A stretch of 63,968 bases of DNA, filler included, from Lama guanicoe (Eukaryota), in NCBI GenBank assembly GCA_013239625.1. It is 78 parts of 76 records of this genome, joined end to end, with 100 filler letters (N's around TTAATTAATTAA, not from the genome) between each part and the next. Parts side by side here need not be neighbours in the genome. Positions count along the whole stretch, not along the records: positions 59,320 to 59,978 come from PNXV01003465.1; 77 more parts are not named here. The stretch is one strand, 5' to 3'. The notes below the pieces were generated by a model. It saw only the letters and a list, made by a program, of their open reading frames with translations, did no database searches and was not told the DNA's origin. Positions 5,565-63,054 of the stretch are shown piece by piece. Both the position numbers and the translations under genes were made by a program. The number at the start of each line of letters is the position of its first letter. Position 1 is the stretch's first letter.

Positions 5565-6569
5565 GGCTCTTCAGGAGCGGCGGGCTCTTCAGGAATGGCA
5601 GGCTCTTCAGGAGTGGCAAGATCAGCAGGAGCGGCTAGATGAGCAGGAATGGCAGGCTCTTCAGGAGCTGCAGGCTCTTCAGGAATGGCAGGCTCTTCAG
5701 GAGCTGCAGGCTCCTCAGGAGCGGCAGGCTCTTCAGGAGCTGCAGGCTCCTCAGGAGCGGCTAGATCAGCAGGAATGGCGGGCTCTTCAGGAGCGGCTAG
5801 ATCAGCAGGAATGGCGGGCTCTTCAGGAGCAGCTAGATCAGCAGGAATGGCGGGCTCTTCAGGAGCAGCTAGATCAGCAGGANNNNNNNNNNNNNNNNNN
5901 NNNNNNNNNNNNNNNNNNNNNNNNNNNNNNNNNNNNNNNNNNNNNNNNNNNNNNNNNNNNNNNNNNNGCAGGCTCTTGCGGCTAGATCAGCAGGAACAGC
6001 AGGTTCATCAGGAGTGGCTAGATCAGCAGGAATGTCGGGCTCTTCAGGAGCGGTTAGATCAGCAGGAACGGCAGGCGCTTCAGGAGCGGCGGGCTCTTCA
6101 GGAGCGGCTAGATCAGCAGGAATGGCGGGCTCTTCAGGAGCGGCTAGATCAGCAGGAATGGCGGGCTCTTCAGGAGCGGCTAGATCAGCAGGAATGGCGG
6201 GCTCTTCAGGAGCGGCTAGATCAGCAGGAATGGCGGGCTCTTCAGGAGCGGCTAGATCAGCAGGAATGGCGGGCTCTTCAGGAGCGGCTAGATCAGCAGG
6301 AATGGCGGGCTCTTCAGGAGCGGCTAGATCAGCAGGAATGGCGGGCTCTTCAGGAGCGGCTAGATCAGCAGGAACGGCAGGCGCTTCAGGAGCGGCGGGC
6401 TCTTCAGGAGCGGCAGGCTCTTCAGGAGCGGCTAGATGAGCAGGAGCAGCAGGCTCTTCAGGAGCTGCAGGCAAGATCCTGGGGAGAGACCTGGGCGATG
6501 TCTGGGCAGGAGACTGTGGAGGTGGGGAGCCCTTCATACCCAGACTCTTCCGGAGCCTGTGCTGGCCTT
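5565..6569 (-). CDS. Partial ORF of 18/36-bp tandem repeats encoding Pro/Ala/Glu-rich (PEEPAIPADLAA)n; gene unassigned
   Basis: The minus frame is open from the right contig edge through the repeats and again left of the gap. Many unit variants are synonymous in this frame. There is a 5-bp deletion at the gap edge (~5977). Confidence 0.5.
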
Positions 6570-7500: not shown

Positions 7501-8138
7501 TTCTTTGCATATTTTAATAAAAATAAAATTCTACCAAACACGTTATTCTGCAACTTGCTTTTTACAAATATTGACACNNNNNNNNNNNNNNNNNNNNNNN
7601 NNNNNNNNNNNNNNNNNNNNNTTAATTAATTAANNNNNNNNNNNNNNNNNNNNNNNNNNNNNNNNNNNNNNNNNNNNGGTGAAGGGCTGAAGAGAGACAA
7701 TGATACAGGGTTTCTGCACACACGCCGCTACCAACCGACTTCCCGACCATGGGCGCAACCGCCTTGAACATCTGAAGGAATTGGCGGCTTCACTCTGGGT
7801 GGTCAAGGGAAGGTCGCGAGGGGTGCACCCTGGGGCGGGGGCTCAAGTTCCCATCCTGGGGGTCACGAAGGACCCCCGGGCCACGGACCCCACGCCCTAA
7901 GCCCCTCCCCGACTCCCCGCGCTGAGCGAGGGCCGACCTGGAATCAAGCAAAGCCCCAGCAAGAGCGGCCAGGCCCTGCCCCAGTTCCTGGCGCGCAGAA
8001 GACGGAGCAGCTTGGCGGGGGTCGGGGTCGGCGCTGGAATCAGGGCCGAGGGTCCTAGGCCAAGGCCGCGGCTGTGAACGCCTAGGTCGTTTGGGAATCT
8101 GCGCGGGGGTGCGCGGCCGGCACACGGGGTGCGGACAA

Positions 8139-8308
8139 TCACATCATGCCACAGGAGCCTTCCCCGATGTACCAGAGTTTGCTGTAGGGCGGCCCCAAGT
8201 AGCAGTCCTGCCCGCGGACCATGTCAGAGACCGTGTCCCTTCCGCGGGCATCAACGTCGCCTTCCCCTCCGCAGACCCTGCAACCACAGCCGCCGCTGCC
8301 GCCTCCAT
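8139..8308 (-). pseudogene. MAPK1: Unprocessed MAPK1 (ERK2) exon-1 pseudogene copy A; GC-rich intron-1-like sequence continues to 7678
   Basis: 8222-8139 translates MVRGQDCYLGPPYSKLWYIGEGSCGMM*, versus ERK2 [27 protein letters not shown]. The upstream ATG (8308) is 86 nt away and so out of frame. The donor reads GTGATT. Confidence 0.88.
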
Positions 8309-8414
8309 GGAAACNNNNNNNNNNNNNNNNNNNNNNNNNNNNNNNNNNNNNNNNNNNNTTAATTAATTAANNNNNNNNNNNNNNNNNNNNNNNNNNNNNN
8401 NNNNNNNNNNNNNN

Positions 8415-9353: not shown

Positions 9354-9805
9354 AATGTAGAACACAGAGTATAGAATATACAATACTGAATACTGAATAA
9401 ATAATTTAAAATATAGAATGTAGAACACAGAATAAAGAATATACAGTACAGAATGCAGAATATAGAATAAAGAATGTTGAATGTAGAAAACAGAATATAG
9501 AATATGGAACAGAGAATACAGAAGCCAGAATTTAGAGCATAGAATGCACAACACAGAATTCAGAATATAGAATATAAAATACTGAATATAGAATTTAGAA
9601 CATAGAATGCGGAACACAGAATAAAATACACTGAATATATAGTTTAGAACATGGAATTCAGAACACAGAATTTAGAATATAGAATACAGAATAATGAATA
9701 TAGAATTTCGAATATTGTTTGAAAACACAGAATACAGAATATAGAATAGAGAAAATAAAAACCACAATTTAGAACATGGAATGCAGAACACAGAATTTAG
9801 AGTAT
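9354..9805 (+). repeat. AGAATAT-heptamer satellite
   Basis: 7-bp periodic AGAATAT/AGAACAC/AGAATTT with recurrent 'agaacatggaatgcagaacacagaattt'. Confidence 0.95.
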
Positions 9806-10924: not shown

Positions 10925-12333
10925 GTTCTAAATTCTGGGTTCTGTACTCTGAATCCTATATTTAGTTTTCTGTATTCAACTTTCTATATTCCACATTCTA
11001 TGTTCTGTATTCTATACTCTATATTATAAATGCTTTGTTCCGAATTCCATGTTCTATATTCTTTGTTCTGTATTCTGCGTTTTATATTCTATATTCCGTG
11101 TTNNNNNNNNNNNNNNNNNNNNNNNNNNNNNNNNNNNNNNNNNNNNNNNNNNNNNNNNNNNNNNNNNNNNNNNNNNNNNNNNNNNNNNNNNNNNNNNNNN
11201 NNNNNNNNNNNNNNNNNNNNNNNNNNNNNNNNNNNNNNNNNNNNNNNNNNNNNNNNNNNNNNNNNNNNNNNNNNNNNNNNNNNNNNNNNNNNNNNNNNNN
11301 NNNNNNNNNNNNNNNNNNNNNNNNNNNNNNNNNNNNNNNNNNNNNNNNNNNNNNNNNNNNNNNNNNNNNNNNNNNNNNNNNNNNNNNNNNNNNNNNNNNN
11401 NNNNNNNNNNNNNNNNNNNNNNNNNNNNNNNNNNNNNNNNNNNNNNNNNNNNNNNNNNNNNNNNNNNNNNNNNNNNNNNNNNNNNNNNNNNNNNNNNNNN
11501 NNNNNNNNNNNNNNNNNNNNNNNNNNNNNNNNNNNNNNNNNNNNNNNNNNNNNNNNNNNNNNNNNNNNNNNNNNNNNNNNNNNNNNNNNNNNNNNNNNNN
11601 NNNNNNNNNNNNNNNNNNNNNNNNNNNNNNNNNNNNNNNNNNNNNNNNNNNNNNNNNNNNNNNNNNNNNNNNNNNNNNNNNNNNNNNNNNNNNNNNNNNN
11701 NNNNNNNNNNNNNNNNNNNNNNNNNNNNNNNNNNNNNNNNNNNNNNNNNNNNNNNNNNNNNNNNNNNNNNNNNNNNNNNNNNNNNNNNNNNNNNNNNNNN
11801 NNNNNNNNNNNNNNNNNNNNNNNNNNNNNNNNNNNNNNNNNNNNNNNNNNNNNNNNNNNNNNNNNNNNNNNNNNNNNNNNNNNNNNNNNNNNNNNNNNNN
11901 NNNNNNNNNNNNNNNNNNNNNNNNNNNNNNNNNNNGTGTTCTACATTCTGTATTCTACATTTTATATACTGTATACCACATTCTACATTCTGTGTTCTGC
12001 ATTCAATGCCTAATTACTGGGTTCTCTATTCTATATTCTATATTCTAAAAACTGTGTTCTTCATTCCATGTTCTGAATTCTGGATTCTGTATTCTATATT
12101 CTATATTCTTTGTATTACATTCTATATTCTACATTCTATATTCTGAATTCTATATTCTATAGTCTGTGTTCTGAATTCAATGTTCTAAATTCTGGGTGCT
12201 GTTTTCTTAATTCTATTTTTTATATTCTGTGTTTTACATTCTAAGTTCTACATTTTATTTCTGTATTCTATATTCTATATTCTTTGTTCTGATTTCCATG
12301 TTCTAAATTCTGGGTCCTGTATTCTGAATCCTA
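10925..12333 (-). repeat. AGAATAT-heptamer satellite (with internal gap)
   Basis: ATATTCT periodicity. Confidence 0.95.
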
Positions 12334-12433: not shown

Positions 12434-12912
12434 GGAAGGTCTTAGCAGGTCTTGCATATATAAAAATACAGGGAACAAAGAAGCAAACAACCATAGTGAT
12501 GTGGGAACCACAGGTCTGGAGGGCTTTCCGCCTCCCTTCCTGACTCAGGTTCTTTAGAGAGTGCAAAATGACACCATAAGAGGTGAGTAAGAGCAGAAAC
12601 ACAATAGTGCAGATCAGTCCTCCATTGGCCACCACTAAGATGCCAATGACATAGGTGTCGAAGCAGACTAGATTCAATAAGGGGTACATGTCACATATAA
12701 AGTGATCAATGACATTGGGGCCACAGAATGGTAGCCCATAAATAGTGCTAAGCTGAATTACTGAATGCAGAAAACCTCCAGCCCAGGACACCACCAGCAG
12801 CACAACACACACCCTTTGCCTCATGATAACCAAATAATGCAAGAGCAAATGGCCACACAGCAGTCATAGGCCATCACCAACAGAAGGAAGACCTCTGATC
12901 CACCAAAAATGT
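12434..12912 (-). pseudogene. Olfactory receptor family 4A-like pseudogene fragment (TM3-TM6)
   Basis: Contains [29 protein letters not shown] and KALQTCGSH motifs. MAYDRY is altered to MAYDCC and followed by a frameshift (~12848, the KP of C-K-P-L is missing). Confidence 0.92.
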
Positions 12913-14902: not shown

Positions 14903-15525
14903 CCCTAACCCTAACCCCTAACCCTAACCCCTAACCCTAACCCTAACCCTCCCTAACCCAGCCCTAACCCTAACCCTAACCCTAACCCTAACCCCCTAAC
15001 CCTAACCCCTGAGTCTAACCCTGAGTCTAACCCTAAACCCTAACCCTAACCCTGAGTCTAACCCTGAGTCTAACCCTAACCCTAACACCCTAACCCTAAC
15101 CCTGAGTCTTACCCTGAGTCTAACCCTAAACCCTAACCCTAACCCTGAGTCTAACCCTAACCCTAACCCTAACCCTAACACCCTAACCCTAACCCTGTGT
15201 CTAACCCTGAGTCTAACCCTAAACCCTAACCCTAACCTTAACCCTAACCCTGAGTCTAACCCTGAGTCTTACCCTTACCCTAAACCCTAACCCTGAGTCT
15301 AACCCTGAGTCTAACCCTAAACCCTAACCCTGAGTCTAACCCTGAGTCTAACCCTAACACTAACCCTAACCCTAACCCTAGCCCTAGCTCTTACCCTGTG
15401 TCTTAACCAAACCCTGAGGCTAACCCTAACCCTAACCCTGAGTCTAACCCTGATTCTAACCCTATTCCTTGCTCTTGTTCTAGCACTAGCCCTAACCCTA
15501 TGCTGTTCCCTAATGCATAACCTAA
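14903..15525 (+). repeat. Telomeric (CCCTAA)n array with variant CCCTGAGTCTAA units, degenerating rightwards
   Basis: Directly visible. Confidence 0.97.
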
Positions 15526-17206: not shown

Positions 17207-17627
17207 GCTCGACTCCCCTGGGTTTTTTCCTAATTTCTCTGTGCCAGGGAATGGTTGGGGGATTTGCAGGAAATCCCAGTGACAGAGGATGCCTCCCCAA
17301 GTTCAGGGAAGGTATTTCTCAAAATTCCTCCTAACAGGTAACACCTGTGTCAGAAGAGAGCTGCGTGGAGTTGTCTCTCGAGCTCCCCCACGCACTGAAA
17401 ATGGTTCCGGAATCCTGAGCGTGGGGAGGTTCCACCTACGGTCGGCAGCGCGTGAGTTCTAACGTAATGCCTAAGCTCGTCTCCCCTGNNNNNNNNNNNN
17501 NNNNNNNNNNNNNNNNNNNNNNNNNNNNNNNNNNNNNNNNNNNNNNNNNNNNNNNCTGCCTCCCCAAGGTCAGGGAAAGTATTTCTCGTACTTCCCCATT
17601 CAGGGAACACCTGTGTATGAAGAGAGC
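17207..17627 (-). repeat. 267-bp satellite
   Basis: Reverse complement of the monomer at 48299-49378. Confidence 0.92.
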
Positions 17628-17727
17628 NNNNNNNNNNNNNNNNNNNNNNNNNNNNNNNNNNNNNNNNNNNNTTAATTAATTAANNNNNNNNNNNNNNNNN
17701 NNNNNNNNNNNNNNNNNNNNNNNNNNN

Positions 17728-18208
17728 CCGTTGGTGGAACCTGCAAACGCTCAGGATTCCGGAACCATTGTCAGTGAGGGGGTAGCTCGAGAGAAAATTC
17801 CACGCAGCCCTCTTCAGTCACAGGTGTTCCCTGTTCGGGGAAGTCCGAGAAATACCTTCCCTGACCTTGTGGAGGCAGCCTCTGTCACTGAGACTTCCTG
17901 CAAACCCCCCTAGCATTCCCTGGCACAGAGACATTAGGAAAAAACCCAGGGGAGAAGAGCTTAGGCATTCGGTTAGAACCCAAATTGGTGGAATCTCCGC
18001 ACGCTCAGGATTCCGGAACCATTGTCTGTGCGGGGAGAGCTCGAGAGACAACTCCACGCAGCTCTCTTCAGTCACAGGTGTTCCCTGTTCGGGGAAGTCC
18101 GAGAAATACCTTCCCTGACCTTGTGGAGGCAGCCGCTGCCTTGGGAATTCCTGGAAACCCTCCTAGCTTTCCCTGGCACAGAGACATTAGGAAAATCCTC
18201 AGGGGAGA
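17728..18208 (+). repeat. 267-bp satellite (254-bp variant monomer)
   Basis: 'tcaggattccggaacc' occurs at 17751 and 18005. Confidence 0.92.
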
Positions 18209-18308: not shown

Positions 18309-19126
18309 AAACCACAGGATCATCTCAATAGATGCAGGAAAAGCATTTGATAAAATTGAACACCCACGTATGAAAAATTCTCACCAAAGTGTGCATAGAG
18401 GGAACATAACTCAGCATCACGAAAGCTATAGATAACAAACCTACAGCCAGCATACTACTCAATGGTGAGAAGTTAAAACCTTCTCACTAAAATCTGGGAC
18501 AAAAGAAGGATGCACACTAGCAACACTCCAACTCAATATAAACTTGGAATTCCTAGCCACAGCAATCAAACAAGAGAGAGAAGTAAAAGGGATGCAAAAT
18601 GGAAAGGAAGAGCTTAAAGTCTCACTATATGCAGATAATATGTTACTATATACATAGTAAACCCTACAAGATCCAGACAAAATTTACTACAACTGATCAA
18701 AGAATTCAGCAAGGTAGCAGGTTACATGATTAAGGTACAAAAATCAGTGACTTTTTTTACGCTAATGATTCAAATAATTCTATAGAGCTACAGTCAACAT
18801 GACAGCACTGTATTGGTAGGAAAACAGACATATAGACCAATGGAACAGAATAGAGAGCCCAGAAATGAACCCACAAACTTTTGGTCAATTAATCTTTGAC
18901 AAAGAATGCAAGAAAATACAGTGGAATTAAGACAGACTCTTCAGCAAATCGTGTTGGGAAAACTGGAGTGCAGCATGTAAATCAATGAAGCTAGAACACT
19001 CCATACACATATATAAACTCAGAATGGATCAAAGACTTATACATAAGACAGGATACAATAAACCTCCTAGAGGAAAATATAGACAAAACGTTATCTGACA
19101 TAAGTCTCAATAATATTCTCGTAGAA
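18309..19126 (+). mobile_element. L1 ORF2 (RT) fragment with internal deletion
   Basis: [13 protein letters not shown] and SLYADNM motifs, then a jump to YRATV..WY and WNRIESPE. Confidence 0.95.
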
Positions 19127-19226: not shown

Positions 19227-19962
19227 AGGGCTGGGGCTGGTACCTAGGGATCAGAGGCTGGGGGGCTGCTGAGGGGCCCCCCCATCTGAGATCCCCCGTG
19301 GGTCAGGAGCATGCCGCTCTCCAGTGGCTGGGGACTGGGTCCCATCTGAGTCCCGCCCCAAGGGTCAACTGGGGGCCCTACAGGTGCAGCAGTCCTCCAG
19401 GGGTCCCCGAAGGCTGGTGTAGGGTCCGGACCACCCCAGGGATCAACAGCTGGAGGGACAGAGGGTCCCCCCGGGGTCTGAGGGGGTGGCAGCCGTGGGG
19501 ATGGCAGGGGCCATGGGTGCTAGGCGCCCCCAGGGGTCCGTGGCCGGCAGAGGACCTGGGGCCGTGAGGACATCAGCAAGATTCGTGAGGGATGACAACT
19601 CCTGGCCGGCCGTCTCCCTCTTGCTCTCCTCTGTGGCCGTCTGCAGCCTCCGGCCATCCCCGCACCGGAGCTGCTCCTCCTTGCTCGTGGCCAGAGCCAG
19701 CTGGAGCTGCAACTCCTCCTCTTCACTGCTCTGCGGCCAGGCCTGCTCTGCCTCCGGCGGGGGCCGAGCACACGGCAGGGGCACCTGCTTCTCCTTGGCC
19801 TTGACCTCGTGTGTGCACGCTCCTCCCGCAGCCAGTCCTGTTCAGGCAACAGGGCCACCAGATGCTTGACCTTTTTGTGCACATTCCTGCCCTGGTCTTT
19901 GCCCTTGTGGTGTACGTACTGGAAGTCCTTCAGCGTCTGCACGGCCTACATGTTCTCCTTGC
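19227..19962 (-). pseudogene. EPN1: Epsin-1 processed pseudogene fragment (ENTH end, UIMs, DPW repeats)
   Basis: QTLKDFQYV..GKDQG.NV..K.K.LVALL....LREERAH, PPPEAEQAWPQSSEEEELQLQLALATSKEE, EESKRET and DPW motifs are collinear without introns. Frameshifts are present. Confidence 0.92.
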
Positions 19963-22759: not shown

Positions 22760-23936
22760 TATAGAATAAAGAATACAGAACACAGATTTTAGAACAATGG
22801 AATGCAGGACAGAAGATAGAATATAGAATACAGAATTACAATGTAGAATATAGAAATTAGAACACAGTAAATAGAATATAGAATACAGAATTCAGAACCC
22901 AGAATATAGAACATGGAATGCAGAACACAGAATACAGAATATAGAAAACACAACACAGATCCCAGGATTTAGAACATGGATTTCAGAACTCAGAATTTAG
23001 AATACAGAATACAGAATAAAGAGTGTAGAATACAGAGTGTACAACACAGTATATAGAATAAAGAATACAGAACGCAGAATATAGAATGTAGAATACAGAA
23101 TTCAAAACCAGAATTTAGAACACGGAATGCAGAACAAAATTTAGAATATAAGAATACAGAATGTAGAATACAGAAAGTAGAATACACAATAACGAATATA
23201 GAATGAAGAATATAGAATGTAGAATCTAGAATGTAGAACACAGAATATAGAATACAGAATGCAGAATAGAGAACACAGAATTAAGAACATGGAATTCAGA
23301 ACAAAGAATTTATAAGCAGAATACAGAATATACAATATAGAATGTAGAATACAGTTTGTAGTACACAAAATATAGAATATAAAATACAGACTACAGAACC
23401 CAGAAATTAGAACATGGAATTCAAAACAGAGAAATTAGAATATTCANNNNNNNNNNNNNNNNNNNNNNNNNNNNNNNNNNNNNNNNNNNNNNNNNNNNNN
23501 NNNNNNNNNNNNNNNNNNNNNNNNNNNNNNNNNNNNNNNNNNNNNNNNNNNNNNNNNNNNNNNNNNNNNNNNNNNNNNNNNNNNNNNNNNNNNNNNNNNN
23601 NNNNNNNNNNNNNNNNNNNNNNNNNNNNNNNNNNNNNNNNNNNNNNNNNNNNNNNNNNNNNNNNNNNNNNNNNNNNNNNNNNNNNNNNNNNNNNNNNNNN
23701 NNNNNNNNNNNNNNNNNNNNNNNNNNNNNNNNNNNNNNNNNNNNNNNNNNNNNNNNNNNNNNNNNNNNNNNNNNNNNNNNAGAACACAGGATAAAGAATA
23801 TAGAATACAGAACAAAGAACCCAATATGCAGAAAATGAAATGCAGATCATAGAATATGAAATAAATTATACAGAATATACAATGTAAAATAGAGAAATTA
23901 GAACACAGAATATAGAATATTGAATACAGGATACAG
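22760..23936 (+). repeat. AGAATAT-heptamer satellite
   Basis: Same motif family. Confidence 0.95.
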
Positions 23937-25581: not shown

Positions 25582-26345
25582 CTGAGAAGAAACGGACAAG
25601 TTTCTGGAAATATACAGTCCACCAAGATGGTATCAAGAAGAAACTGAGCTCTTGAACAAACCAATCACTAGGCATGAAATCTAATTAGCAATAAAAAACC
25701 TCCCTACAGATAAAAGTCCACGACCAGATGGCTTCACTGGGGAATTCTACAACCATACAAAGAACAACTCATACTAGTCCTACTCAAACTCTTCCAGAAG
25801 ACTGAAAAAGAGGGAGTACTCCCAAACTCATTCTATGAAGCCACCATCACCCTGATACCAAAATTATGCAAAGACACTACCAAAAAAGAGAATTATAGGC
25901 CAGTATCACTCATTAAAATAGATGCAAAAATCCTCAACAAAATATTAGCAAACAGAATCCAGCAGCACATAAAAAAGTTCACAAACCATGATCAAGTTGG
26001 ACTCATCCCAGGAACACAAGGATGGCTCAACATAAGCAAATCAATCAATATAATACACCACATCAAGAGAGAAAGGACAAAAAACAACATGATCATCTCA
26101 ATAGATGCAGGAAAAGCATTTGATAAAATTCAACACCCATTTATGATAAAAACTCTCAACACAGTGGGTATAGAGGGGACATATATCAACATAATAAAAA
26201 CTATTTATGACAAACCTATAGCCAGCTTAGTACTCAATTGTGAAAAACTAAAAACTTTCCCACTAAAATCCAGGGCCATCAAAGTCGTCCACTCTAACCA
26301 CTCCTATTCAACAGAGTCTTGAAGTCCTAGCCACAGCAATCAGGC
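25582..26345 (+). mobile_element. L1 ORF2 (Z/RT) fragment
   Basis: [34 protein letters not shown] and [23 protein letters not shown] motifs. Confidence 0.97.
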
Positions 26346-29238: not shown

Positions 29239-29733
29239 GAGTTGGAGCTTGTACCTACCCATATATATGTATGGAGTGGAGTCTGCTCTGAAGAGAAACT
29301 TTGTGTTCCCTACAAGCGAGGTGAAGGACGGCTGTCACACACACTTAACTGTCAAAACTGAGCATGTGGAGAGACGTTCGTTCATCTAGCACAAAGGGAA
29401 CAGGTTGCAGGAGAAACACTTACTCTGGTTTCTCAGTCTGTTTCCTAGTGCCGGTTTGAAGTTCNNNNNNNNNNNNNNNNNNNNNNNNNNNNNNNNNNNN
29501 NNNNNNNNNNNNNNNNNNNNNNNNNNNNNNNNNAGAAACTTTGTGTTCCCAACAAGCTCGGTGAAGGACGGCTTTCTCACACGCTTAACTCTCAAAACTG
29601 AGCATGTGGACAGAAGTTCTTTCATCTAGCACAAAGGGAACTGGTTGCAGGAGAACAACTTACTCTGGATTCTCAGTCTGTTTACTACTGCAGGTTTGAA
29701 GTTCCTGCAGTTTTGACTATAAAACCGAGTGGA
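29239..29733 (+). repeat. ~240-250-bp satellite (family 3)
   Basis: Two copies of 'agaaactttgtgttccc...gtgaaggacggct...aaaactgagcatgtgga'; same family as 62369-63054. Confidence 0.9.
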
Positions 29734-29833: not shown

Positions 29834-30466
29834 AATATACAATACAGAATATTGAATATAGAATTTAGATGACTAAATGTAGGACACAGAATATAGAATA
29901 TAGAAAATACATATTAGAACAATGTATGTAGAACATAGAATGCAGAACACAGAATTTAGAATATAGAATACAGAATACTGAATATAGAAATTGGAATATA
30001 GAATGTAGAACACAGAATATAGAGTATACTATACGGAATGCACAATATAGAATACAGAAAATAAAATATAGAACACAGAATATAGAATATGGAAAACAGA
30101 ATATAGAAACCAGAATTTAGAACATGGAATGCAGAACACAGAATATACAATATAGAATCCAGAATACTGAATATAGAATTAAGAACATAGAATGCAGGAC
30201 ACAGAATGTAGAATATGGAATATAGAATACTGAATATAGAATTTAGAACGATACAGAACACAGAATTTAGAATATAGAATACAGAATACTGAATATAGAA
30301 TTTAGAATATAGAAATAAGTACACAAAATATAGAATATAAAATACAGAATATACAAACCAGAATTTGGAACATGGGATGCAGAACCCCGAATTTAGAATA
30401 TAGAATACAGAATACAGAATACAGAATTTAGAAAATAGATGTAGAACACAGAATATAGAATATAAA
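29834..30466 (+). repeat. AGAATAT-heptamer satellite
   Basis: Same motif family. Confidence 0.95.
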
Positions 30467-30566
30467 NNNNNNNNNNNNNNNNNNNNNNNNNNNNNNNNNN
30501 NNNNNNNNNNTTAATTAATTAANNNNNNNNNNNNNNNNNNNNNNNNNNNNNNNNNNNNNNNNNNNN

Positions 30567-31292
30567 CTATATTCTAAATTCTGTGTTCTGCATTCCTTGT
30601 TCTATATACTGTGTTATGTATCCTGTATTCAATATTCAATTTTCTGTGTTATTCTTTCAATATTCTTAATTCTATATTCTGCATTCTGTATTCTATAGTC
30701 TAAGCTCTGTGTTCTATATTCTATATTCTAAATTCTGTGTCCTGCATTCCATGTTCTAAATTCTGGGTTCTATATTCTCTATTCTCTATTCTATTTTCTG
30801 TTTTCATACATTCTAAATTCAATATTCAGTATTCTGTATACTATACTCTAAATTCTGTGTTCTGCATTCCATGTTCTAAATTCTGGGTTCTGTATACTGT
30901 TTCCCATATTCTATATTCTGTGTTCAACATTCTATATTCTGTATTGTATATTATGCATTCCGTATATTATATTCTATATTCTGTGTTCTACATTCTATAT
31001 TCTTAATTCTATATACAGTATTCTGTATTCTATATTCTAAATTCTGTGTTCTGCATTCCATGTTCTAAATTCTGCGTTCTCTATTCTATATTCTATATTC
31101 TATATTCTCTGTTCTACATTCAATAATCTAAAGTCTATATTATGTATTCTGTATTCTATATTCTAAATCCTGTGTTCTGAATTCCATGTTCTAAATTCTG
31201 GGTTCTTTATTTTCTATTTTATATTCGATTTTGTGTTATACACTCTATATTCTACATTCTATATTCTGCATTCGGTATTCTATATTCTATTT
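30567..31292 (-). repeat. AGAATAT-heptamer satellite
   Basis: Same motif family, antisense. Confidence 0.95.
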
Positions 31293-34127: not shown

Positions 34128-35314
34128 TAGAACATGGAATGCTGAACACAGAATTTAGCATATAGAAAACCGAATATGGAATATAGAATATGAAAATACA
34201 ATGTAGAACACAGAATTTAGAATATAGATTACAAAATACTGAGTATAGAATTTTGAATATATAATGTAGAACACAGAAGATAGAATATGGAATACAGAAT
34301 ATAGAAACCAAAATTTAGATCATGGAATGCTGAACACAGAATTTAGCATATAGAAAACCGAATATGGAATATAGAATATGAAAATACAATGTACAACACA
34401 GAATTTAGACTATAGAATACAGAATATAGAAACCAAAATTTAGATCATGGAATGTAGAACATAGAATTTAGAATATAGATTACAAAATACTGAGTATAGA
34501 ATTTTGAATATATAATGTAGAACACAGAATTTATAATATATAATACAGAAAGCTGAATATAGTATTTAGAATATGGAATGTAGAACACAGAATATAGAAT
34601 ATAGATTACCTAAAACAGAATAGAGATTGTAGAATATAGAATGAAGTACACAAAATTTAGAATATAGAATAAAGAATATAGAACCCAGAATTGAGAACAT
34701 GTAATTCAAAACACAGAATTTAGAATGTAGAATACAGAATACTGAATATAGAATTTAGAATATAGAATGCAGACACAGAATATAGAATAGAGAATACAGA
34801 ACCCAGAATTTAGAACATGGTATGCAGAACACAGAATTTCGTAAATAGAACACAGAATACTGAATATAGAATTTTGAACATGGAATGCAGAACACAGAAT
34901 TTTGAATATAGAATACAGAAAGCTGAACATATAATTTAGAATATCGAATGTGAACACAGAATNNNNNNNNNNNNNNNNNNNNNNNNNNNNNNNNNNNNNN
35001 NNNNNNNNNNNNNNNNNNNNNNNNNNNNNNNNNNNNNNNNNNNNNNNNNNNNNNNNNNNNNNNNNNNNNNNNNNNNNNNNNNNNNNNNNNNNNNNNNNNN
35101 NNNNNNNNNNNNNNNNNNNNNNNNNNNNNNNNNNNNNNNNNNNNNNNNNNNNNNNNTAGAATATAATGAAGAACACAGAATATAGATTATAGACTATGGA
35201 ATGGAGAATATAGAATGTAGAATATAGAATAATGAGCGCAAAATATAGAATAGAGAATATAGAAACCAGAATTTAGAACATGGATTGCAAACACAGAATT
35301 TAGAATATTCAATA
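34128..35314 (+). repeat. AGAATAT-heptamer satellite
   Basis: Same motif family. Confidence 0.95.
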
Positions 35315-36459: not shown

Positions 36460-37243
36460 AGAATACTGAATATAGAATTTACAACATGGAATGCAGAACA
36501 CAGAATTTTGATTATAGAATAAAGAATTTAGAAGCCAGAATATACAACATGGAATACAAAACACAGAATTTAGAATATAGAATACAGAATACGGAATGTA
36601 GAATTTAGAATATAGAATTTAGAACACAGAATATAGAATATAGAATACGGAATTCAAAATTTAGTATGAAGGATCTAGAATGAAGAACACAGTATATAGA
36701 ATATATAAAAGAGAATATAGAACCCAGAATTTACAAATTGAATGCAGAGAACAGAATTAATAATATAGAATACAAAATACTAAATATAGAATTTAGATTA
36801 TAGAAAGATGAACACAGAATACAGAATATAGAAAAGTCAATTTACAACATGGAATGCAGAACACAGAATTAAGAAAATAGAATACAGAATACTGAATATA
36901 GAATTTTGAAAATAGAAGGTAGAACACAGAATATATAATGCTGAATACTGAATGCAGAATATAGAATATAGAATATAGAATGTAGAACACAGAATATAAA
37001 ATATGGAAAACAGAATATAGAACCCAGAATTTAAATATGGAATGCAGAACACATAATTTAGAATATAGAACACAGAACGCTGAATATAGGATTTAGACTA
37101 TAGAATGTGGAACACAGGATATAGAATATAGAAAAGAGGAAAAAGAGGATAACCAGAATTTAGAACATGGAATGCAGAACAGAGAATTATAATTTAGAAT
37201 ACGGAATGCTGAATATAGAAATTAGAATATAGTATGTAGAACA
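36460..37243 (+). repeat. AGAATAT-heptamer satellite
   Basis: Same motif family. Confidence 0.95.
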
Positions 37244-38145: not shown

Positions 38146-38935
38146 ATATAGAACACAGAATGCTGAAAATAATATTTAGAATATCGAATGTTGAACACTA
38201 AATATATACAATATAGAATAGAGAATATAGAACCCAGAATTAAGAACATGGAATGTAGAACACAGAATTTAGAATATAGAATACAGAATACTGAATATAG
38301 AATTTAGAATATAGAATGTAGAACACAGAATATAGAATATAGACTACGGAATGCAGAATATAGTGTATAGAATATAGAATGATGAACTAAATATATACAA
38401 TATAGAATAGAGAATATAGAACCCAGAATTAAGAACATGGAATGTAGAACACAGAATTTAGAATATAGAATACAGAATACTGAATATAGAATTTAGAATA
38501 TAGAATGTAGAACACAGAATATAGAATATAGACTACGGAATGCAGAATATAGTGTATAGAATATAGAATGATGAACTAAATATATACAATATAGAATAGA
38601 GAATATAGAACCCAGAATTAAGAACATGGAATGTAGAACACAGAATTTAGAATATAGAATACAGAATACTGAATATAGAATTTAGAATATAGAATGTAGA
38701 ACACAGAATATAGAATATAGAATACGGAATGCAGAATATACAATACAGAATATAGAATGTAGAACACAGAATATAGAATATAGAATACGGAATGCAGAAT
38801 ATACAATACAGAATATAGAATGTAGAACACAGAATATAGAATATGGAAAACAGAATACAAAAGCCTGAATTGAGAACAAGGAATGCAGAACACATAATTT
38901 AGAATATAGAAAACAAAATACTGAATATAGAATTT
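38146..38935 (+). repeat. AGAATAT satellite with 189-bp and 63-bp higher-order repeats
   Basis: 'aacccagaattaag' at 38231, 38420 and 38609; 'agaatgtagaacac' at 38691, 38754 and 38817. Confidence 0.95.
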
Positions 38936-40572: not shown

Positions 40573-41570
40573 GAACACAGAATATAGAATATAGACTACA
40601 GAATGTAGAATCCAGATTTAAAAACACGCTATGCAGAACACAGAATTTAGAATATAGATTTCATAATACTGAATATAGAATTNNNNNNNNNNNNNNNNNN
40701 NNNNNNNNNNNNNNNNNNNNNNNNNNNNNNNNNNNNNNNNNNNNNNNNNNNNNNNNNNNNNNNNNNNNNNNNNNNNNNNNNNNNNNNNNNNNNNNNNNNN
40801 NNNNNNNNNNNNNNNNNNNNNNNNNNNNNNNNNNNNNNNNNNNNNNNNNNNNNNNNNNNNNNNNNNNNNNNNNNNNNNNNNNNNNNNNNNNNNNNNNNNN
40901 NNNNNNNNNNNNNNNNNNNNNNNNNNNNNNNNNNNNNNNNNNNNNNNNNNNNNNNNNNNNNNNNNNNNNNNNNNNNNNNNNNNNNNNNNNNNNNNNNNNN
41001 NNNNNNNNNNNNNNNNNNNNNNNNNNNNNNNNNNNNNNNNNNNNNNNNNNNNNNNGAACATAGAATTTAGAACATAGAATGCAGAACACAGAAATTAGAA
41101 TATAGAATACGGAATGCAGAATTTAGAATGTAGAATCTAAAATGAAGAACACAGAATATAGAATATATAAAAGAGAATATAGAACCCAGAATTTAGAAAT
41201 GGAATGCAGAGAATACAATTTACAATATAGAGTACAAAATAGTGAATACAGAATTTAGAATATGAAAGAGGAACACAGAATATAGAATATAGAAAAGAGA
41301 ATTTAGAACATGGAATGCAGAACACAGAATTTAGAATATAGAATACAGAATACAGAAAATAGAATTTAGAAAATAGAAGGTAGAACACAGAATATATAAT
41401 GTAGAATACGGAATGCAGAATATAGAATACTAATATAGAATGTAGAACACATAATATAAAATATGTAAAACAGTATATAGAACCCAGAATTTCGAACATG
41501 GAATTCAGAACACAGAATTTCGAATAAGAATACAGAACGCTGAATATAGGATTTAGACTATAAAATGTAG
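40573..41570 (+). repeat. AGAATAT-heptamer satellite
   Basis: Same motif family. Confidence 0.95.
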
Positions 41571-43808: not shown

Positions 43809-44598
43809 TCTGTATTCTGTATTCTATATTCTTATTCTGAGTTCTACATTCTATATTATACATTCTATATTCTGTACACTTTATTGTATATTCTGCGTTC
43901 TAAATTCTATATTCTACATTCTATATTATGTATTCTGTATCCTATATTCAAATTCTGTGTTCTGAATTCCATGTCCTAAATTCTGTGTTCTGTATTCTGT
44001 ATTCTATATTCATATTCTGAGTTCTACATTCTATATTCTACATTCTTTATTTTGTATACTTTATTGTATATTCTGCGTTCTACATTCTATATTCTATATT
44101 CTATAAATTTCTATGCTCTACATTCTATATTATGTATTCTGTATCCTATATTCTAAATTCTGTGTTCTGAATTCCATGTTCTAAATTCTGTGTTCTGTAT
44201 TCTGTATTCTATATTCTGTAATCTGTGATCTTCATTCTATGTTCTGTATTCTGTATTCTAATTCGAAATTCTGTGTTCTACTTTCTATGCTCTACATTCT
44301 ATATTCTGTATTCTGTACTCTATATTCTAAATTCTGTGTTCTGAGTTCAATGTTCTAATTTCTATGTTCGGTATTCTGAATTCTATATTCTAAATTCTGT
44401 ATTCTACATTCTAAATAATTTGTTCTGTATTCCATGGTCTAAATACTCGGTTCTGTATTCGATAATCTAAAATCTATACTCTGTGTTCTACATTCAACAT
44501 TGTATATATTCTTTATTCTATGTTCTGTGTTCTACATTCTCTATTCTAAATTCTCTATTCTGTATTCTGTATGCTATGTTCCCAATTCCGTGTTCTAC
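43809..44598 (-). repeat. AGAATAT-heptamer satellite
   Basis: Same motif family, antisense. Confidence 0.95.
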
Positions 44599-47590: not shown

Positions 47591-47830
47591 ATATATTCTT
47601 TGGAACAATGTCTTTGGCTGTGAGCTACCACAAGATCTCCTATGTATTTCCCTGTGCCATACGGTATAATCTTGTTCATCTATTCTGCATCTGCCTGTCA
47701 GTATCTGCACATTTCCAACTCCCAGTCTGTCCCGTCCCACGCCCCTGCCCCTTGGCAACCACAAGTTTGTTTTCTATTTCTATGGGTGTGTCTGTTTTGT
47801 ATTTATGTTCTTTTCTGTTTTTCCTTTTTT
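47591..47830 (-). mobile_element. L1 3' UTR fragment
   Basis: 'atttccctgtgccatacggtataatcttgtt...cccttggcaaccacaagtttgttttctat'. Complementary in type to the L1 end at 53080-53260. Confidence 0.8.
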
Positions 47831-47859
47831 TCCCCTTCAAAACCATCTTTAAAGCAGCA

Positions 47860-48198
47860 GCCTAGGGAAGCCTGCTTCCAAGATGTCGAAGGCGTGGCCT
47901 GGGCCGCGCGCAGAGTGGCGGTATGGGCTGTGCGGGAAGGGCCAGAACAGGACGGGAGAAATCTGCGGAGCAGGGGCAGGGGAAGGGCTGGGCCAGGAGC
48001 GGAGAGCCCGGTTGGGGCGGACTCGGCTGGGCGGGGTGAGCCGGGGCTGGGGGCGGCGTCGGCTGCGCGGGGAGAGCCGGGGCGGGGGTCGTTCTCGGCC
48101 GCGCCGCCGGGAAAGCCGGGGCTTAGGGCGGGGGGCGATCTCGGCTGCGCCGGGACAGCTGGGGTGGGGGGCGTCCTCGGGCGCGCGGGGAGAGCCGG
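47860..48198. promoter_or_regulatory. CpG-island-like GC-rich segment
   Basis: Very CpG-dense with several GGGCGG boxes. Confidence 0.55.
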
Positions 48199-48298: not shown

Positions 48299-49378
48299 TC
48301 CGTTTGAACCCACGCGCTGCTGACCGTTGGTGGAACCTCCCCACGCTAGGGTTCCGGAAACATTGTCACTGCGTTTAGAGCTCGAGAGACAACTCCACGC
48401 AGCTCTCTTCAGTCACAGGTGTTCCCTGTTAGGGGTAATTCTGAGAAATACCTTCCCTGACCTCAGGGAGGCAGCCTCTGACACTGGGATTGCCATGAAC
48501 CCCCCTAGCATTCCCTGGCACAGAGACATTAGGAAAAAACCCAGGGGAGACGAGCTTAGGCATTCCGTTAGAACCCACACGCTGCCGACCNNNNNNNNNN
48601 NNNNNNNNNNNNNNNNNNNNNNNNNNNNNNNNNNNNNNNNNNNNNNNNNNNNNNNNNNNNNNNNNNNNNNNNNNNNNNNNNNNNNNNNNNNNNNNNNNNN
48701 NNNNNNNNNGAGAAATACCTTCCCTGACCTTGGGGAGGCAGCCTCTGTCACTGGGATTGCCTGCAAACCCCCCTAGCATTCCCTGGCACAGAGATATTAG
48801 GAAAATCCCAAGGGAGACGAGCTTAGGCATTCCGTTAGAACCCACGCGCTGCCGACCGTTGGTGGAACCTCCCCACGCTCAGGATTCCGGAATCATTGTC
48901 AGTGCGTGGGTAGCCCGAGAGACAACCCCACGCAGCTCTCTTCAGTCACAGGTGTTCCCTGTTAGGGGGAATTCTGAGAAATTCCTTCCCTGACCTTAAG
49001 GAGGCAGCATCTGTCACTGGGATTGCCTGAAAACGCCTCTAGCATTCCCTTTCACAGAGACATTAGGAAAAATACCAGGGGAGTCGAGCTTAGGCATTCC
49101 GTTAGAACCCACGCGTTGCCGACCGTTGGTGGAACCTCCCCACGCTCAGGATTCCGGAACCACTGTCAGTGCGTGGGGAGCTCGAGAGAGAACTCCACGC
49201 AGCTCTCTTCAGTCACAGGTGTTCCCTGTTGGGGGGAAATCTGAGAAATATCTTCCCTGATCTTTGGGAGGCAGCATCTGTCACTGGGATTGCCTGCAAA
49301 CCCCCCTAGCATTTCCTCGCTCAGAGACACTAGAAAAAAACCCAGGGGAGTCGAGCTTAGGCATTCCGTTAGAACCAA
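48299..49378 (+). repeat. 267-bp tandem satellite (~4 monomers)
   Basis: 'cgagcttaggcattccgttagaacc' at 48551, 48818, 49085 and 49352 (period 267). Confidence 0.97.
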
Positions 49379-51788: not shown

Positions 51789-52599
51789 ATTTAGAATATA
51801 GAATACAGAATACTGAATATAGAATTTTGAATATTGAATGAGGAACACAGAATATAGAAGAGATAATAAAGAATATTGAACCCAGAATTTAGAACATGGA
51901 ATGCAGAACACAGAATTTAGAATATATAATACAGACTACTGAATATAGAATTTAGAAAATAGAAGGTCGAGCACAGAATATATAAAAAATTTAGAACATG
52001 TAATGCAGAACACAGAATTTGTAATAAAGAATACAGAATGCTGAATATAGGGTTTAGAATATAGAATATAGAAAAAAGCATATAGAATATAGAATAGAGG
52101 ATATAGAACACAGAATTTCGAACATGGAATGCAGAACACAGAACTTAGAATATAGAATACGACTACTTAATATCGAATTAAGAATATAGAATATAGAACA
52201 CAAAATATAGAATATATAATACGGAATGCAGAATATAGAATACAGAATATAGAATTTAGAAAACTGAATATAGAATATGGAAAACAGAATACAGAACCAA
52301 TAATTTAGAAATGGAACACAGAACACAGAATGTAGAATATAGAATACAGTATACTGCATATAGAATTTAGAATATAGAATGTAGCACACAGAATATAGAA
52401 TATACAATACCAAATGCAGAATATACACTGTAGAATATAGAATGTAGGACACAGAATATAGAATATAGTATACGGAAGGTAAAATATAGTATGTAGAATC
52501 TAGAATGAAAAACACACTATATAGAATACAGAATAGAGAATGTAGAACCCACAATTTACAACATGGAATGCAGAACACAGAATTTAGAATATAGAATAC
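51789..52599 (+). repeat. AGAATAT-heptamer satellite
   Basis: Same motif family. Confidence 0.95.
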
Positions 52600-53988: not shown

Positions 53989-54033
53989 AATATTTCATCT
54001 ACGCATCAGGATTTGGCTGGAGTCCCGGCTGCA

Positions 54034-54072
54034 GCTTTGGGTACAGGCTGCAGGTGCCTGGGGAGCACTGTG
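54034..54072 (-). other. V(D)J recombination signal sequence, 23-bp spacer
   Basis: CACAGTG (54072-54066), 23-nt spacer, then ACCCAAAGC (54042-54034), directly after YFCAAS. Confidence 0.95.
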
Positions 54073-54388
54073 CACTTGCTGCACAGAAGTAGGTGGCTGC
54101 GTCTCCGGGCTGGGAGTCCTTGATGTGCAATGAGAAGAGTTTGGCACTTTCATTGGAGGAAACTGTGAATCTTCCATCTTCCTTTTTATTCCCACCTGAA
54201 CTTTTGGCTATCAAGAATTCAGGGCCTTGACCCGGGTATTGCCGGTACCATCGGAAGTAGTGAAATGCATCATTCTCATAAGTACAGTTCAGAACAAACT
54301 GAAATTGCTCCTTCATGGACTACCAGGGATTGAGGGCTCTGTTTCACCTGCTGTTGCTCACTTTTTCCATTCTGTTGTCCACTCACCC
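54073..54388 (-). pseudogene. T-cell receptor alpha/delta V exon, TRAV23/DV6-like, with a 4-bp frameshift
   Basis: [30 protein letters not shown] / [24 protein letters not shown]...[20 protein letters not shown]. Acceptor AG at 54390-54389; leader-intron donor GTGAGT at 54527-54522; 4 extra nt near 54293-54296. Confidence 0.92.
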
Positions 54389-59319: not shown

Positions 59320-59720
59320 TTAGGAAGAACTCTTAGGCGAGAATGCAAATCAGGGCGGATACCAGTTCGCACAGGTGTCTTGGCCCTGAGCGCGCAACCC
59401 CGCCCCCTGGCCTAAGGAGCCAACCCGAGTGCACGCAACCCGGCCCCGCCCAGTTTCCCCCTCGGCCACGCCCCTGCCCCGGCCGCCGGCCCGCCCCTTG
59501 ATCAGGCAGGCAGGCAGGCAGGCAGGAGGCAGTTGTTCCCAGCGCTCTTCTGAGCGCCGCTGTCCCTCCTCAGCCTGCCAGCGGCGATCAGCCAGCCAGT
59601 GGCGGCGGCTGCACAGGCAGCGGCGCGGTCCCTTTAGGAGGCGCAGCTTGAGCCGAGCGGCGGCCGCGGACGGGCCAGCCCAGAACGTTGGCGGCGCCGG
59701 TGGCGTCCGCGTCGGTTTCC
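59320..59720 (+). promoter_or_regulatory. MAPK1-like CpG-island promoter/5' UTR of copy B
   Basis: (GGCA)n run, 'ggcggctgcac' and 'gagcggcggccgc' resemble the recalled MAPK1 5' UTR. GC boxes are present, and ATGCAAAT lies at 59343-59350. Confidence 0.7.
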
Positions 59721-59890
59721 ATGGAAGCGGCAGCGGCGGTTGTGGTGGCGGCGGAGGCGGCGGCGAAGGCGACGGTGATGGAAGCGGAGGGGGACACGGT
59801 CTCCAACATGGTCGGCGGGCAGGCGTGCGACGTGGGGCCGCCCTACAGCAACCTCTGGTTCATCGGGGAAGAATCCTGTGTCGTGATGTC
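59721..59890 (+). pseudogene. MAPK1: Unprocessed MAPK1 (ERK2) exon-1 pseudogene copy B; intron-1-like sequence to 59978
   Basis: MEAAAAVVVAAEAAAKATVMEAEGDTVSN-MVGGQACDVGPPYSNLWFIGEESCVVM. Phase-2 end before GTGATT (59891). The Gly-loop GEGAYG is changed to GEESCV. The downstream sequence matches the reverse complement of 8055-8140. Confidence 0.88.
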
Positions 59891-60078
59891 GTGATTGTCT
59901 GCACCCCGTGTGCCGGCCTTGCACCCCCGCGCAGCTTCCCACCCGACCTAGGCGTTAGCAGCCGCGGCCTTGGCCTAGNNNNNNNNNNNNNNNNNNNNNN
60001 NNNNNNNNNNNNNNNNNNNNNNTTAATTAATTAANNNNNNNNNNNNNNNNNNNNNNNNNNNNNNNNNNNNNNNNNNNN

Positions 60079-62368: not shown

Positions 62369-63054
62369 GAAAAGTGTTGCAGGAAAAACACTTACTCAGG
62401 TTTCTCTGTCTGTTTCCTAGTGCAGATTTGAAGTACCTGCCGTTTTCACCATAAAACCGAGTAGGAGCTTGTACATCCCCATATATATGTATGGAGTGGT
62501 GTTTGCAACTGAAAAGAAACTTTGTGTTCCAGTCAGGCTAGTTGAAGGACGGCTTTCATTCACAATTATCTCTAAGAAATGAGCATGTGGAGAGACTTTC
62601 GTTCATCCAGCCAAAAGGAACGGGTTGCAGGAGAAACACTTACTGTGGTTTCTAAGCTTGTTTCCAAGTGCCGGTTTGACGTGCCTGAAGTTTTCAATGT
62701 AAACACGAGTTGGAGCTTGTACATCCCCACATATATGTATGGTGTGGTTTTGGCAACTGGAAATTAACTTTGTGTTCCCTTCAAGCTAGGTGAATCACGG
62801 CTTTCACACACACTTATCTCTCAGACCTCAGCACGATTCGTTCATACAGCACAATGGGCCCGGGATGCAGGAGAAACACTTAGTCTGTAATCTCAGTCTG
62901 TTTTCTAGTGCTGGTTTGAAGTGCCTGTGCTTTTCACTGTGAAACCGAGTTGGAGCTTGTACATCCCCATAAATATATATGGAGTGGAGATGGCAACTGA
63001 AAAGGAACTCTGTGTTCCCTTCCAGCTAGGTGAAGGACGGCTTTCACACACACT
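62369..63054 (+). repeat. ~240-250-bp satellite (family 3), ~2.8 monomers
   Basis: 'ggagcttgtacatcccca' at 62464, 62712 and 62952 (periods 248 and 240). Confidence 0.92.

What the first reader, a model, noticed from the sequence alone, without database searches (positions are those of the whole stretch)
59320..59978. Two independently decayed, unprocessed MAPK1/ERK2 exon-1 copies suggest an amplified duplicon
Seen: this contig and 7678-8314 (opposite strand) both carry an ERK2 exon-1-like peptide followed by shared intron-like sequence. Both have the donor GTGATT and PPYS in place of PRYT, yet they differ at many other sites. Known: MAPK1 is a highly conserved, normally single-copy gene, and retrocopies lack promoter and intron. 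Inference: two such copies among ~78 unplaced, satellite-rich contigs suggest a multi-copy segmental duplication of the MAPK1 5' CpG island, possibly in heterochromatin. Both remain CpG-rich and might drive non-coding or chimeric transcripts.
Basis: partly seen in the sequence, partly recalled or inferred. Interest (0 to 1): 0.7.

Follow-up and report, generated by a model that had tools for sequence, protein, structure and literature searches.

The report
Amplified MAPK1 front-end pseudogene, camelid
Two unplaced scraps of a camelid genome are broken copies of the front end of the signalling gene MAPK1 (ERK2), part of a many-copy repeat family; one more case of gene fragments multiplying in repeat-rich DNA, not a new working kinase gene.

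Summary
59320-59978(+) and 7678-8314(-) overlap over 264 columns at 84.8% identity. Both encode an ERK2-type exon-1 peptide and stay alike past the exon end. The family is multi-copy: 63-193 distinct contigs from each of four public DNA runs (four organism labels) lie on the 659 bases, up to 24 over one site. My estimate is about 10-20 loci, with no single-copy control. Seven ERK2 replacements are shared by both copies, so much decay preceded amplification. Stops, a frameshift and 10 of 11 non-synonymous codon differences mark them as dead. A third copy supplies residues 1-168 of alpaca RefSeq model XP_072796990.1 in non-ERK frames, a weak hint of a chimeric transcript. Differences are transversion-rich (11 transitions of 36), like other repeats here, so CpG richness need not mean promoter activity. 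Pseudogene-rich blocks are published for alpaca (PMC13751797); MAPK1 is not named in its text. The scan has no earlier MAPK1 note, but has unchecked notes on similar amplified gene front ends in this genome.

The parts
59320..59978 (+). Copy A: whole contig; promoter-like region, 5'UTR-like region, exon-1-like segment and start of intron-like sequence
   Evidence: GC 0.70, CpG o/e 0.88
59343..59350 (+). Octamer-consensus word (name recalled); its ATG aligns to the start codon of RefSeq model XP_072796990.1 on another copy
   Evidence: 5 matches in the window against 3.7 expected, so not enriched
59353..59496 (+). Four GC boxes (59353, 59400, 59446, 59491); no TATA or CCAAT word
   Evidence: 4 observed against shuffle mean 1.1, 15 of 1000 shuffles reach 4
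59503..59532 (+). (CAGG)n run, 7.8 copies; recalled as resembling the start of the mammalian MAPK1 5'UTR, not checked
   Evidence: TRF
59570..59604 (+). 18-bp tandem duplication present in A, absent from many family contigs and from the XP_072796990.1 copy
   Evidence: TRF; table 4 (59583, 18 left out); (6-residue gap)
59721..59807 (+). ATG and Ala-rich N-terminal stretch (29 codons); a low-depth variant has a shorter form
   Evidence: tables 5 and 5c
59808..59890 (+). ERK2-homologous exon-1 segment, 14 of 27 residues identical to ERK2; glycine-rich loop broken (GEESCV)
59858..59859 (+). GT at the point where XP_072796990.1 leaves the element: possible cryptic donor or a breakpoint of that copy
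59891..59978 (+). Donor-like GTGATT (59891-59896, overlapping TGA 59892-59894) and 88 bases of intron-like sequence shared with B (8 differences)
7678..8314 (-). Copy B: whole contig
   Evidence: GC 0.66, CpG o/e 0.74
8223..8308 (-). B: ATG (8308) and Ala-rich stretch with a 1-nt deletion near 8241 that shifts the frame
   Evidence: same deletion in run contigs (table 4, 59789)
8143..8222 (-). B: ERK2-homologous segment, 16 of 27 residues identical to ERK2, with a 3-nt deletion at its end
   Evidence: same deletion in 23-31% of depth in all four runs
7678..8142 (-). B: GTGATT (8142-8137) and 465 bases of GC-rich intron-like sequence; no poly(A), no kinase-domain match

Best explanation
A DNA-level duplication copied the 5' end of MAPK1 (promoter CpG island, 5'UTR, exon 1 and at least about 465 bases of intron 1) to a new place in a camelid ancestor. 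The founder decayed first: both copies share seven ERK2 residue replacements, a lengthened Ala-rich start and a weakened donor. It was then amplified, probably as a passenger in a larger repeat block, into several subfamilies totalling about 10-20 loci. The copies have since drifted without protein-level constraint, under the transversion-rich change that also marks the window's satellites. They make no kinase. At least one copy may serve as promoter and first exon of a spliced transcript with no real protein. SHOWN: ERK2 origin, many variants, shared and private lesions, the substitution spectrum, the RefSeq model. INFERRED: that the flanks are MAPK1 promoter and intron, the copy number, the heterochromatic location, any transcription.
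For: Many variants: 127/63/193/89 contigs on 659 bases in 4 of 4 runs; 24 contigs carry one variant at 59726 in X3; listed contig depths span 12- to 19-fold within a run. Twenty runs under six organism labels in seven studies hold part of the stretch (only four were laid). B's 3-nt deletion is in 23-31% of depth and a stop at 59879 in 45-73% in all four runs. Summed codon distance at four diagnostic residues is 3 to ERK2 against 8 to ERK1, for each copy. A against B: 10 non-synonymous and 1 synonymous codon differences. No poly(A) and no kinase-domain match downstream. A third copy on a 55.6-Mb alpaca record shares run variants: 15 of 32 residue differences from A are explained by 39 of the 40 variant rows shown, of 120. 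Transitions are 11 of 36, against 109 of 286 in six other repeat pairs (Fisher p 0.47). Analogous alpaca blocks: PMC13751797.
Against: No single-copy control was laid, and the tool states that summed depth is not a copy number. No parental MAPK1 DNA was available, so promoter and intron identity were not tested. No run holds half or more of A's sampled words, and no listed contig spans the stretch. At several sites (e.g. 59671, 59814) no laid contig shows A's letter, so A may be a rare variant or partly an assembly product. Protein-level E-values are weak. Flanks and chromosomal position are unknown.
Confidence: 0.8

Rival explanations
1. The amplified MAPK1 promoter is a working module. It drives spliced chimeric transcripts at many copies, like a primate core duplicon, and this activity helped it spread or persist.
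For: XP_072796990.1 begins inside the element and continues into 148 unrelated residues from a GT position. GC boxes are retained. 19 of the 28 (A) and 24 (B) CpGs in the overlap are shared.
Against: Only one such protein was found (best 8000 candidates scored), in a cluster of one member. It has no Pfam family, only weak PDB hits with E >= 0.045 and a model pLDDT of 0.32. Its reading frame is broken in A. CpG retention fits the transversion-rich spectrum shared with the window's other repeats.
Confidence: 0.12
2. There are only two or three real copies. The apparent multiplicity comes from alleles, fragmented short-read contigs and unrelated GC-rich DNA laid at 80% likeness.
For: The listed contigs are short (87-299 bases), and likeness was relaxed to 80%. 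No control locus was laid.
Against: Up to 24 contigs carry one variant at one site. Listed contigs reach 6-7 times the median listed depth in three of four runs. The same indels recur in four organism labels. At least four structural types are seen: A, the B type, the 18-bp-shorter type and the short-N-terminus type.
Confidence: 0.05
3. The element spread by retrotransposition of an unspliced or prematurely ended MAPK1 transcript, as a SINE-like family.
For: High copy number; differing upstream flanks near 59322-59329 among contigs (table 7).
Against: GC-box-rich sequence upstream of the presumed start is shared by many contigs. No A run longer than 3 and no polyadenylation signal in either contig. 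The ends of the unit were not seen.
Confidence: 0.03

Closest known systems
Pseudogene-rich repetitive blocks of alpaca chromosomes 11 (ATF5, FMN2), 17 (NEK10) and 36 (uS3m, ACTB, ABHD17A); PMC13751797
   Same: Fragmentary, multi-copy (5-18 copies each) gene pieces in a camelid, explained there by duplication followed by degeneration.
   Different: MAPK is not mentioned in that paper's main text. Position in such a block and absence from Camelus were not testable. This piece is a promoter plus first exon.
Canonical MAPK1/ERK2 (PDB chains)
   Same: Exon-1 peptide, 14 and 16 of 27 residues identical; donor-like site at the expected exon end (position recalled).
   Different: Longer Ala-rich start, broken glycine-rich loop in A, frameshift in B, a stop in about half or more of family depth, no later exon seen.
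RefSeq XP_072796990.1, uncharacterized protein, Vicugna pacos
   Same: Residues 1-168 derive from another copy of this element (69% over 160 residues).
   Different: Read in non-ERK frames, joined to 148 unrelated residues; the frame is broken in copy A.
Human acrocentric short-arm DNA (bioRxiv 10.64898/2025.12.16.694519; abstract and de novo mutation section read)
   Same: Depleted CpG>TpG change and an excess of some transversions in repeat-rich DNA.
   Different: That is a pedigree mutation spectrum (C>G and A>C excess, 10-fold rate). Here it is unpolarised paralogue divergence dominated by the C/A and G/T class; no rate was measured.
Primate pericentromeric mosaic duplications and core duplicons (recalled; no paper read)
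   Same: Unprocessed gene fragments amplified; promoter capture can create fusion transcripts.
   Different: No mosaic junction, expression or selection is shown here.

Membership tests
MAPK1-derived (against MAPK3) | Best protein matches are ERK1/2 | tested here: met
   weak E-values (best 0.019, 0.012)
MAPK1-derived (against MAPK3) | Codons at ERK2/ERK1 diagnostic residues closer to ERK2 | tested here: met
   summed distance 3 against 8 in each copy, four sites
Unprocessed (duplicated) pseudogene | No exon-exon junction and no poly(A) | tested here: met
   within the contigs only
Unprocessed (duplicated) pseudogene | Flanks homologous to the parent's promoter and intron | not testable with these tools
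   no parental DNA; the copies share 88 bases past the exon
Unprocessed (duplicated) pseudogene | Disabling changes and no protein-level constraint | tested here: met
   frameshift in B, stop at 59879 in 45-73% of depth, 10 non-synonymous against 1 synonymous
Segmental duplication, strict sense (>=1 kb, >=90%; definition recalled) | Pairwise identity of at least 90% | tested here: inconclusive
   A against B is 84.8% (not met); 94, 45, 146 and 55 laid contigs are at 90% or more of A
Segmental duplication, strict sense (>=1 kb, >=90%; definition recalled) | Unit of at least 1 kb | not testable with these tools
   contigs of 659 and 637 bases; together they span 1036 alignment columns; ends unseen
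Alpaca pseudogene-rich repeat blocks (PMC13751797) | Multi-copy, fragmentary gene pieces | tested here: met
Alpaca pseudogene-rich repeat blocks (PMC13751797) | Located in a repeat-rich block | not testable with these tools
   contigs unplaced; only the shared substitution spectrum points that way
Alpaca pseudogene-rich repeat blocks (PMC13751797) | Absent or reduced in Camelus | not testable with these tools
   organism labels are coded; the only protein hit is alpaca
Functional ERK2 paralogue | Intact exon-1 frame and glycine-rich loop | tested here: not met
   A: frame open but loop reads GEESCV; B: frameshift
Core duplicon (recalled) | Transcription from many copies | tested here: inconclusive
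   one automatic model; no RNA data seen

The most novel reading that the evidence does not exclude
The MAPK1 promoter was captured and amplified as a portable promoter/first-exon module that starts a camelid-specific family of spliced chimeric transcripts, XP_072796990.1 being one. It is also a gene-derived marker with a known ancestral protein inside fast-mutating, transversion-biased DNA. That would allow a test, over millions of years, of whether the rate and spectrum reported for human acrocentric short arms are a general property of mammalian heterochromatin.
Probability: 0.15. Interest if true: 0.65.

Novelty: new member of a known kind. Interest (0 to 1): 0.34.

Why it matters
Practically, a many-copy MAPK1 5' fragment can confound read mapping, methylation, CAGE, PCR design and variant calls at a central signalling gene in camelids, and it already seeds at least one doubtful RefSeq protein. 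Biologically, it adds a component to the recently described pseudogene-rich repeat blocks of alpaca. The transversion-rich divergence warns against reading CpG retention as promoter function, and against dating such copies with an ordinary clock. It would matter more if many copies proved to be active promoters.

Tried and rejected
No whole genome is held. Rfam: 0 matches in the window. Pfam was run on the 150 longest of 221 stop-to-stop frames of 62 residues or more: no family on either copy. Searches with the ERK-frame peptides found no protein: 6 candidates of 18-100 aa and 482 of 101-2000 aa, none at E <= 0.01; phmmer of the 80-residue frame against 1.84 billion representatives gave 0. Two metagenome pattern scans found nothing. 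Plasmids gave two short matches at 69-76% identity, taken as chance. The bacterial promoter scan does not apply. Whether the element lies inside a published alpaca satellite monomer could not be tested: supplement cells are cut at 400 characters, and two control primers were not found either. A Y-chromosome origin found no support: 'MAPK' does not occur in PMC7830431, and the sex of the runs is unknown. The chromosome of the 55.6-Mb record was not identified (the VicPac4 paper is not held). The oocyte RNA supplement showed only MAPK13 and MAPK14 rows in the first 2 of 40 'mapk1' places and was not followed further. The octamer word is not enriched. A functional kinase paralogue was rejected.

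Full report
Setting. The window is 78 short contigs joined by a fixed N-linker, with 51,581 called bases. No whole genome is held. The organism is a camelid by two independent signs. The only protein relative found is from Vicugna pacos. Contig 5565-6569 holds a 33-base motif of the published alpaca satellite VpaSat05-8550 with 2 mismatches, 0 expected by chance.

Observation. Copy A (59320-59978, +) and copy B (7678-8314, -) align over 264 columns at 84.8%, 291 bits, against a best of 31 bits in 200 shuffles. There are 36 substitutions in 260 ungapped columns: 17 of 87 in the Ala-rich start, 11 of 79 in the ERK-like segment, 8 of 88 after the exon end and 0 of 6 before the ATG. Copy A reads 57 codons from 59721 to a TGA that overlaps the donor-like GTGATT. 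Copy B has a 1-nt deletion before the ERK-like segment and a 3-nt deletion at its end.

Which gene. The PDB hits shown are ERK2 or ERK1 chains, apart from one entry named CSD101 whose aligned stretch has the ERK2 sequence; E-values are weak, as expected for about 27 diverged residues. At the four residues where ERK2 and ERK1 differ, each copy's codons are 3 changes from ERK2 and 8 from ERK1. Over 27 residues A matches ERK2 at 14 and B at 16, and seven replacements are identical in both: F>C, R>P, T>S, S>W, A>S, Y>C, V>M (by eye). So the founder was already decayed before A and B parted. Between A and B, 10 codons differ non-synonymously and 1 synonymously.

Unprocessed origin. Likeness continues 88 bases past the exon end, and B runs on for 465 GC-rich bases with no poly(A) and no kinase-domain match. 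Upstream, A has four GC boxes (15 of 1000 shuffles reach four). I could not compare either flank with real MAPK1 DNA (searches found none). That the CAGG run and the exon-end position match MAPK1 is recalled, not tested.

Copy number. Twenty DNA or unlabelled runs under six organism labels in seven studies hold 24-47% of A's sampled words. I laid four of them at 80% likeness: 127, 63, 193 and 89 contigs fell on the 659 bases, in every identity band from 99+% to under 90%. At 59726, 12, 2, 24 and 7 contigs carry the same alternative letter. B's 3-nt deletion makes up 23-31% of depth in all four runs and its frameshift 7-53%. A stop codon at 59879 makes up 45-73%. Among the 9-10 contig depths per run that I took from the tables, the range is 12- to 19-fold. 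Summed depth at eight sites is 6-19 times the median listed contig (range 3-56). The tool warns that this is no copy number, contigs overlap, short ones are dropped, only 32 of 474 pieces were shown, and I laid no single-copy control. About 10-20 loci is therefore my estimate, good to a factor of two or three. Against a tidy picture: no run holds half of A's words, and at several sites no laid contig shows A's letter. Contigs drop rare variants, so A may be a low-copy member, a polymorphic one, or partly an assembly product.

A third copy with a gene model. The 196-codon open frame of A finds one protein, XP_072796990.1, uncharacterized, 316 aa, on a 55,628,672-base alpaca record. Residues 1-168 follow the element in two non-ERK frames of A from the ATG at 59343 to the codon at 59858. 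The remaining 148 residues match nothing in the window. That copy lacks A's 18-bp duplication, like many run contigs, and 15 of its 32 residue differences from A, over 166 compared, are explained by the variants shown (39 of the 40 rows shown, of 120; six of the rest fall in a misaligned stretch at the CAGG run). The exit point is a GT, so this may be a cryptic splice donor 33 bases before the old one, or a breakpoint. The protein has no family and no confident fold. By recall, NCBI keeps such models mainly when transcripts support them; I did not see the evidence.

Substitution spectrum. Only 11 of the 36 A-B differences are transitions, 4 are CpG-type, and 19 are of the C/A or G/T class. The laid runs give transition shares of 0.36-0.42, all measured against A. 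Six other repeat pairs in the window, chosen from 13 comparisons, pool to 109 of 286, not different from the MAPK1 pair (Fisher p 0.47) and far below the roughly two thirds usual in mammals (recalled value). One of the six, the 18/36-bp repeat, has 17 of 26 and does not fit. Misalignment could lower the share in satellites, and I had no euchromatic control. Human acrocentric short arms show a 10-fold mutation rate with depleted CpG>TpG and excess C>G and A>C (10.64898/2025.12.16.694519). Human pericentromeric flanks mutate 1.1- to 4.1-fold faster (PMC11062924, passages). I infer that the copies sit in similar DNA, that CpG retention need not mean an active promoter, and that 15% divergence (K2P 0.153) cannot be dated with an ordinary clock.

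Known context. PMC13751797 describes pseudogene-rich repeat blocks on alpaca chromosomes 11, 17 and 36, absent or reduced in camel assemblies. I read its outline, passages, methods, results part 1 of 2, both discussion parts and the spreadsheet supplement (cells cut at 400 characters). The slide supplement with figures S5 and S6 could not be read and might name further genes. 'MAPK' does not occur in its main text. Four full-text searches that included MAPK1 gave 1, 0, 1 and 0 papers; the two hits are cattle and buffalo studies seen as listings only. Also seen: passages of PMC7830431, PMC6598621 and PMC13535496; passages and part 1 of section 4 of PMC9547437; part 1 of 2 of 10.1101/2025.08.28.672513, without its supplement; a supplement search of PMC13663546. 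The VicPac4 paper is not held, and NCBI annotation may already label some copies. Earlier notes of this scan hold nothing on MAPK1. They do report amplified front ends of ANO6, POFUT2 and TRAPPC9, and a RAB6-type first exon, in the same genome; I did not test these.

Verdict. A real, many-copy, dead MAPK1 5' fragment: a new member of a known kind, interest 0.34. The bolder reading, an active promoter module feeding chimeric transcripts in fast-mutating DNA, stands at about 0.15.

Noticed in passing
window, six multi-copy pairs (e.g. 18309-19126 / 25582-26345; 17728-18208 / 48299-49378; 29239-29733 / 62369-63054): Paralogue divergence is transversion-rich across most repeats (109 transitions of 286), including a pair with a reverse-transcriptase hit, presumed L1 (16 of 44); no euchromatic control.
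   Followed up: partly
window 5565-6569: 18/36/72-bp GC-rich tandem repeat with collagen-like open frames; holds a motif of alpaca VpaSat05-8550.
   Followed up: partly
window 17207-18208 and 48299-49378: 267-bp satellite in three contigs; recalled as the monomer length of the NOR-associated SAC-SAT, not checked.
   Followed up: no
window 9354-9805, 10925-12333, 22760-23936, 29834-31292, 34128-35314, 36460-37243, 38146-38935, 40573-41570, 43809-44598, 51789-52599: AT-rich satellite with 7-bp unit and 21/63/189-bp higher periods in 11 contigs.
   Followed up: no
window 29239-29733 and 62369-63054: 240-bp tandem repeat in two contigs, 85% alike.
   Followed up: no
window 14903-15525: Degenerate telomere-like array with a 43-bp higher period.
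   Followed up: no
window 19227-19962 (-): ENTH-domain (epsin-like) coding sequence, apparently intronless and broken.
   Followed up: no
window 54002-54319 (-): T-cell receptor alpha/delta-type V exon.
   Followed up: partly
window 12435-12863 (-): Olfactory receptor fragment.
   Followed up: no
window 47591-48198: Another CpG-rich contig (o/e 0.78) ending in a GC-rich 36/43-bp repeat; unidentified.
   Followed up: no
run X10, contig leaving the element before window 59439: One contig has 255 unlike bases upstream of 59439; it could be the parental promoter or another junction (table 7).
   Followed up: no
runs X1 and X10, window 59760-59821: A low-depth variant replaces 60 bases by 28, giving a shorter N-terminal stretch nearer to ERK2 in length (tables 5, 5c).
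   Followed up: no
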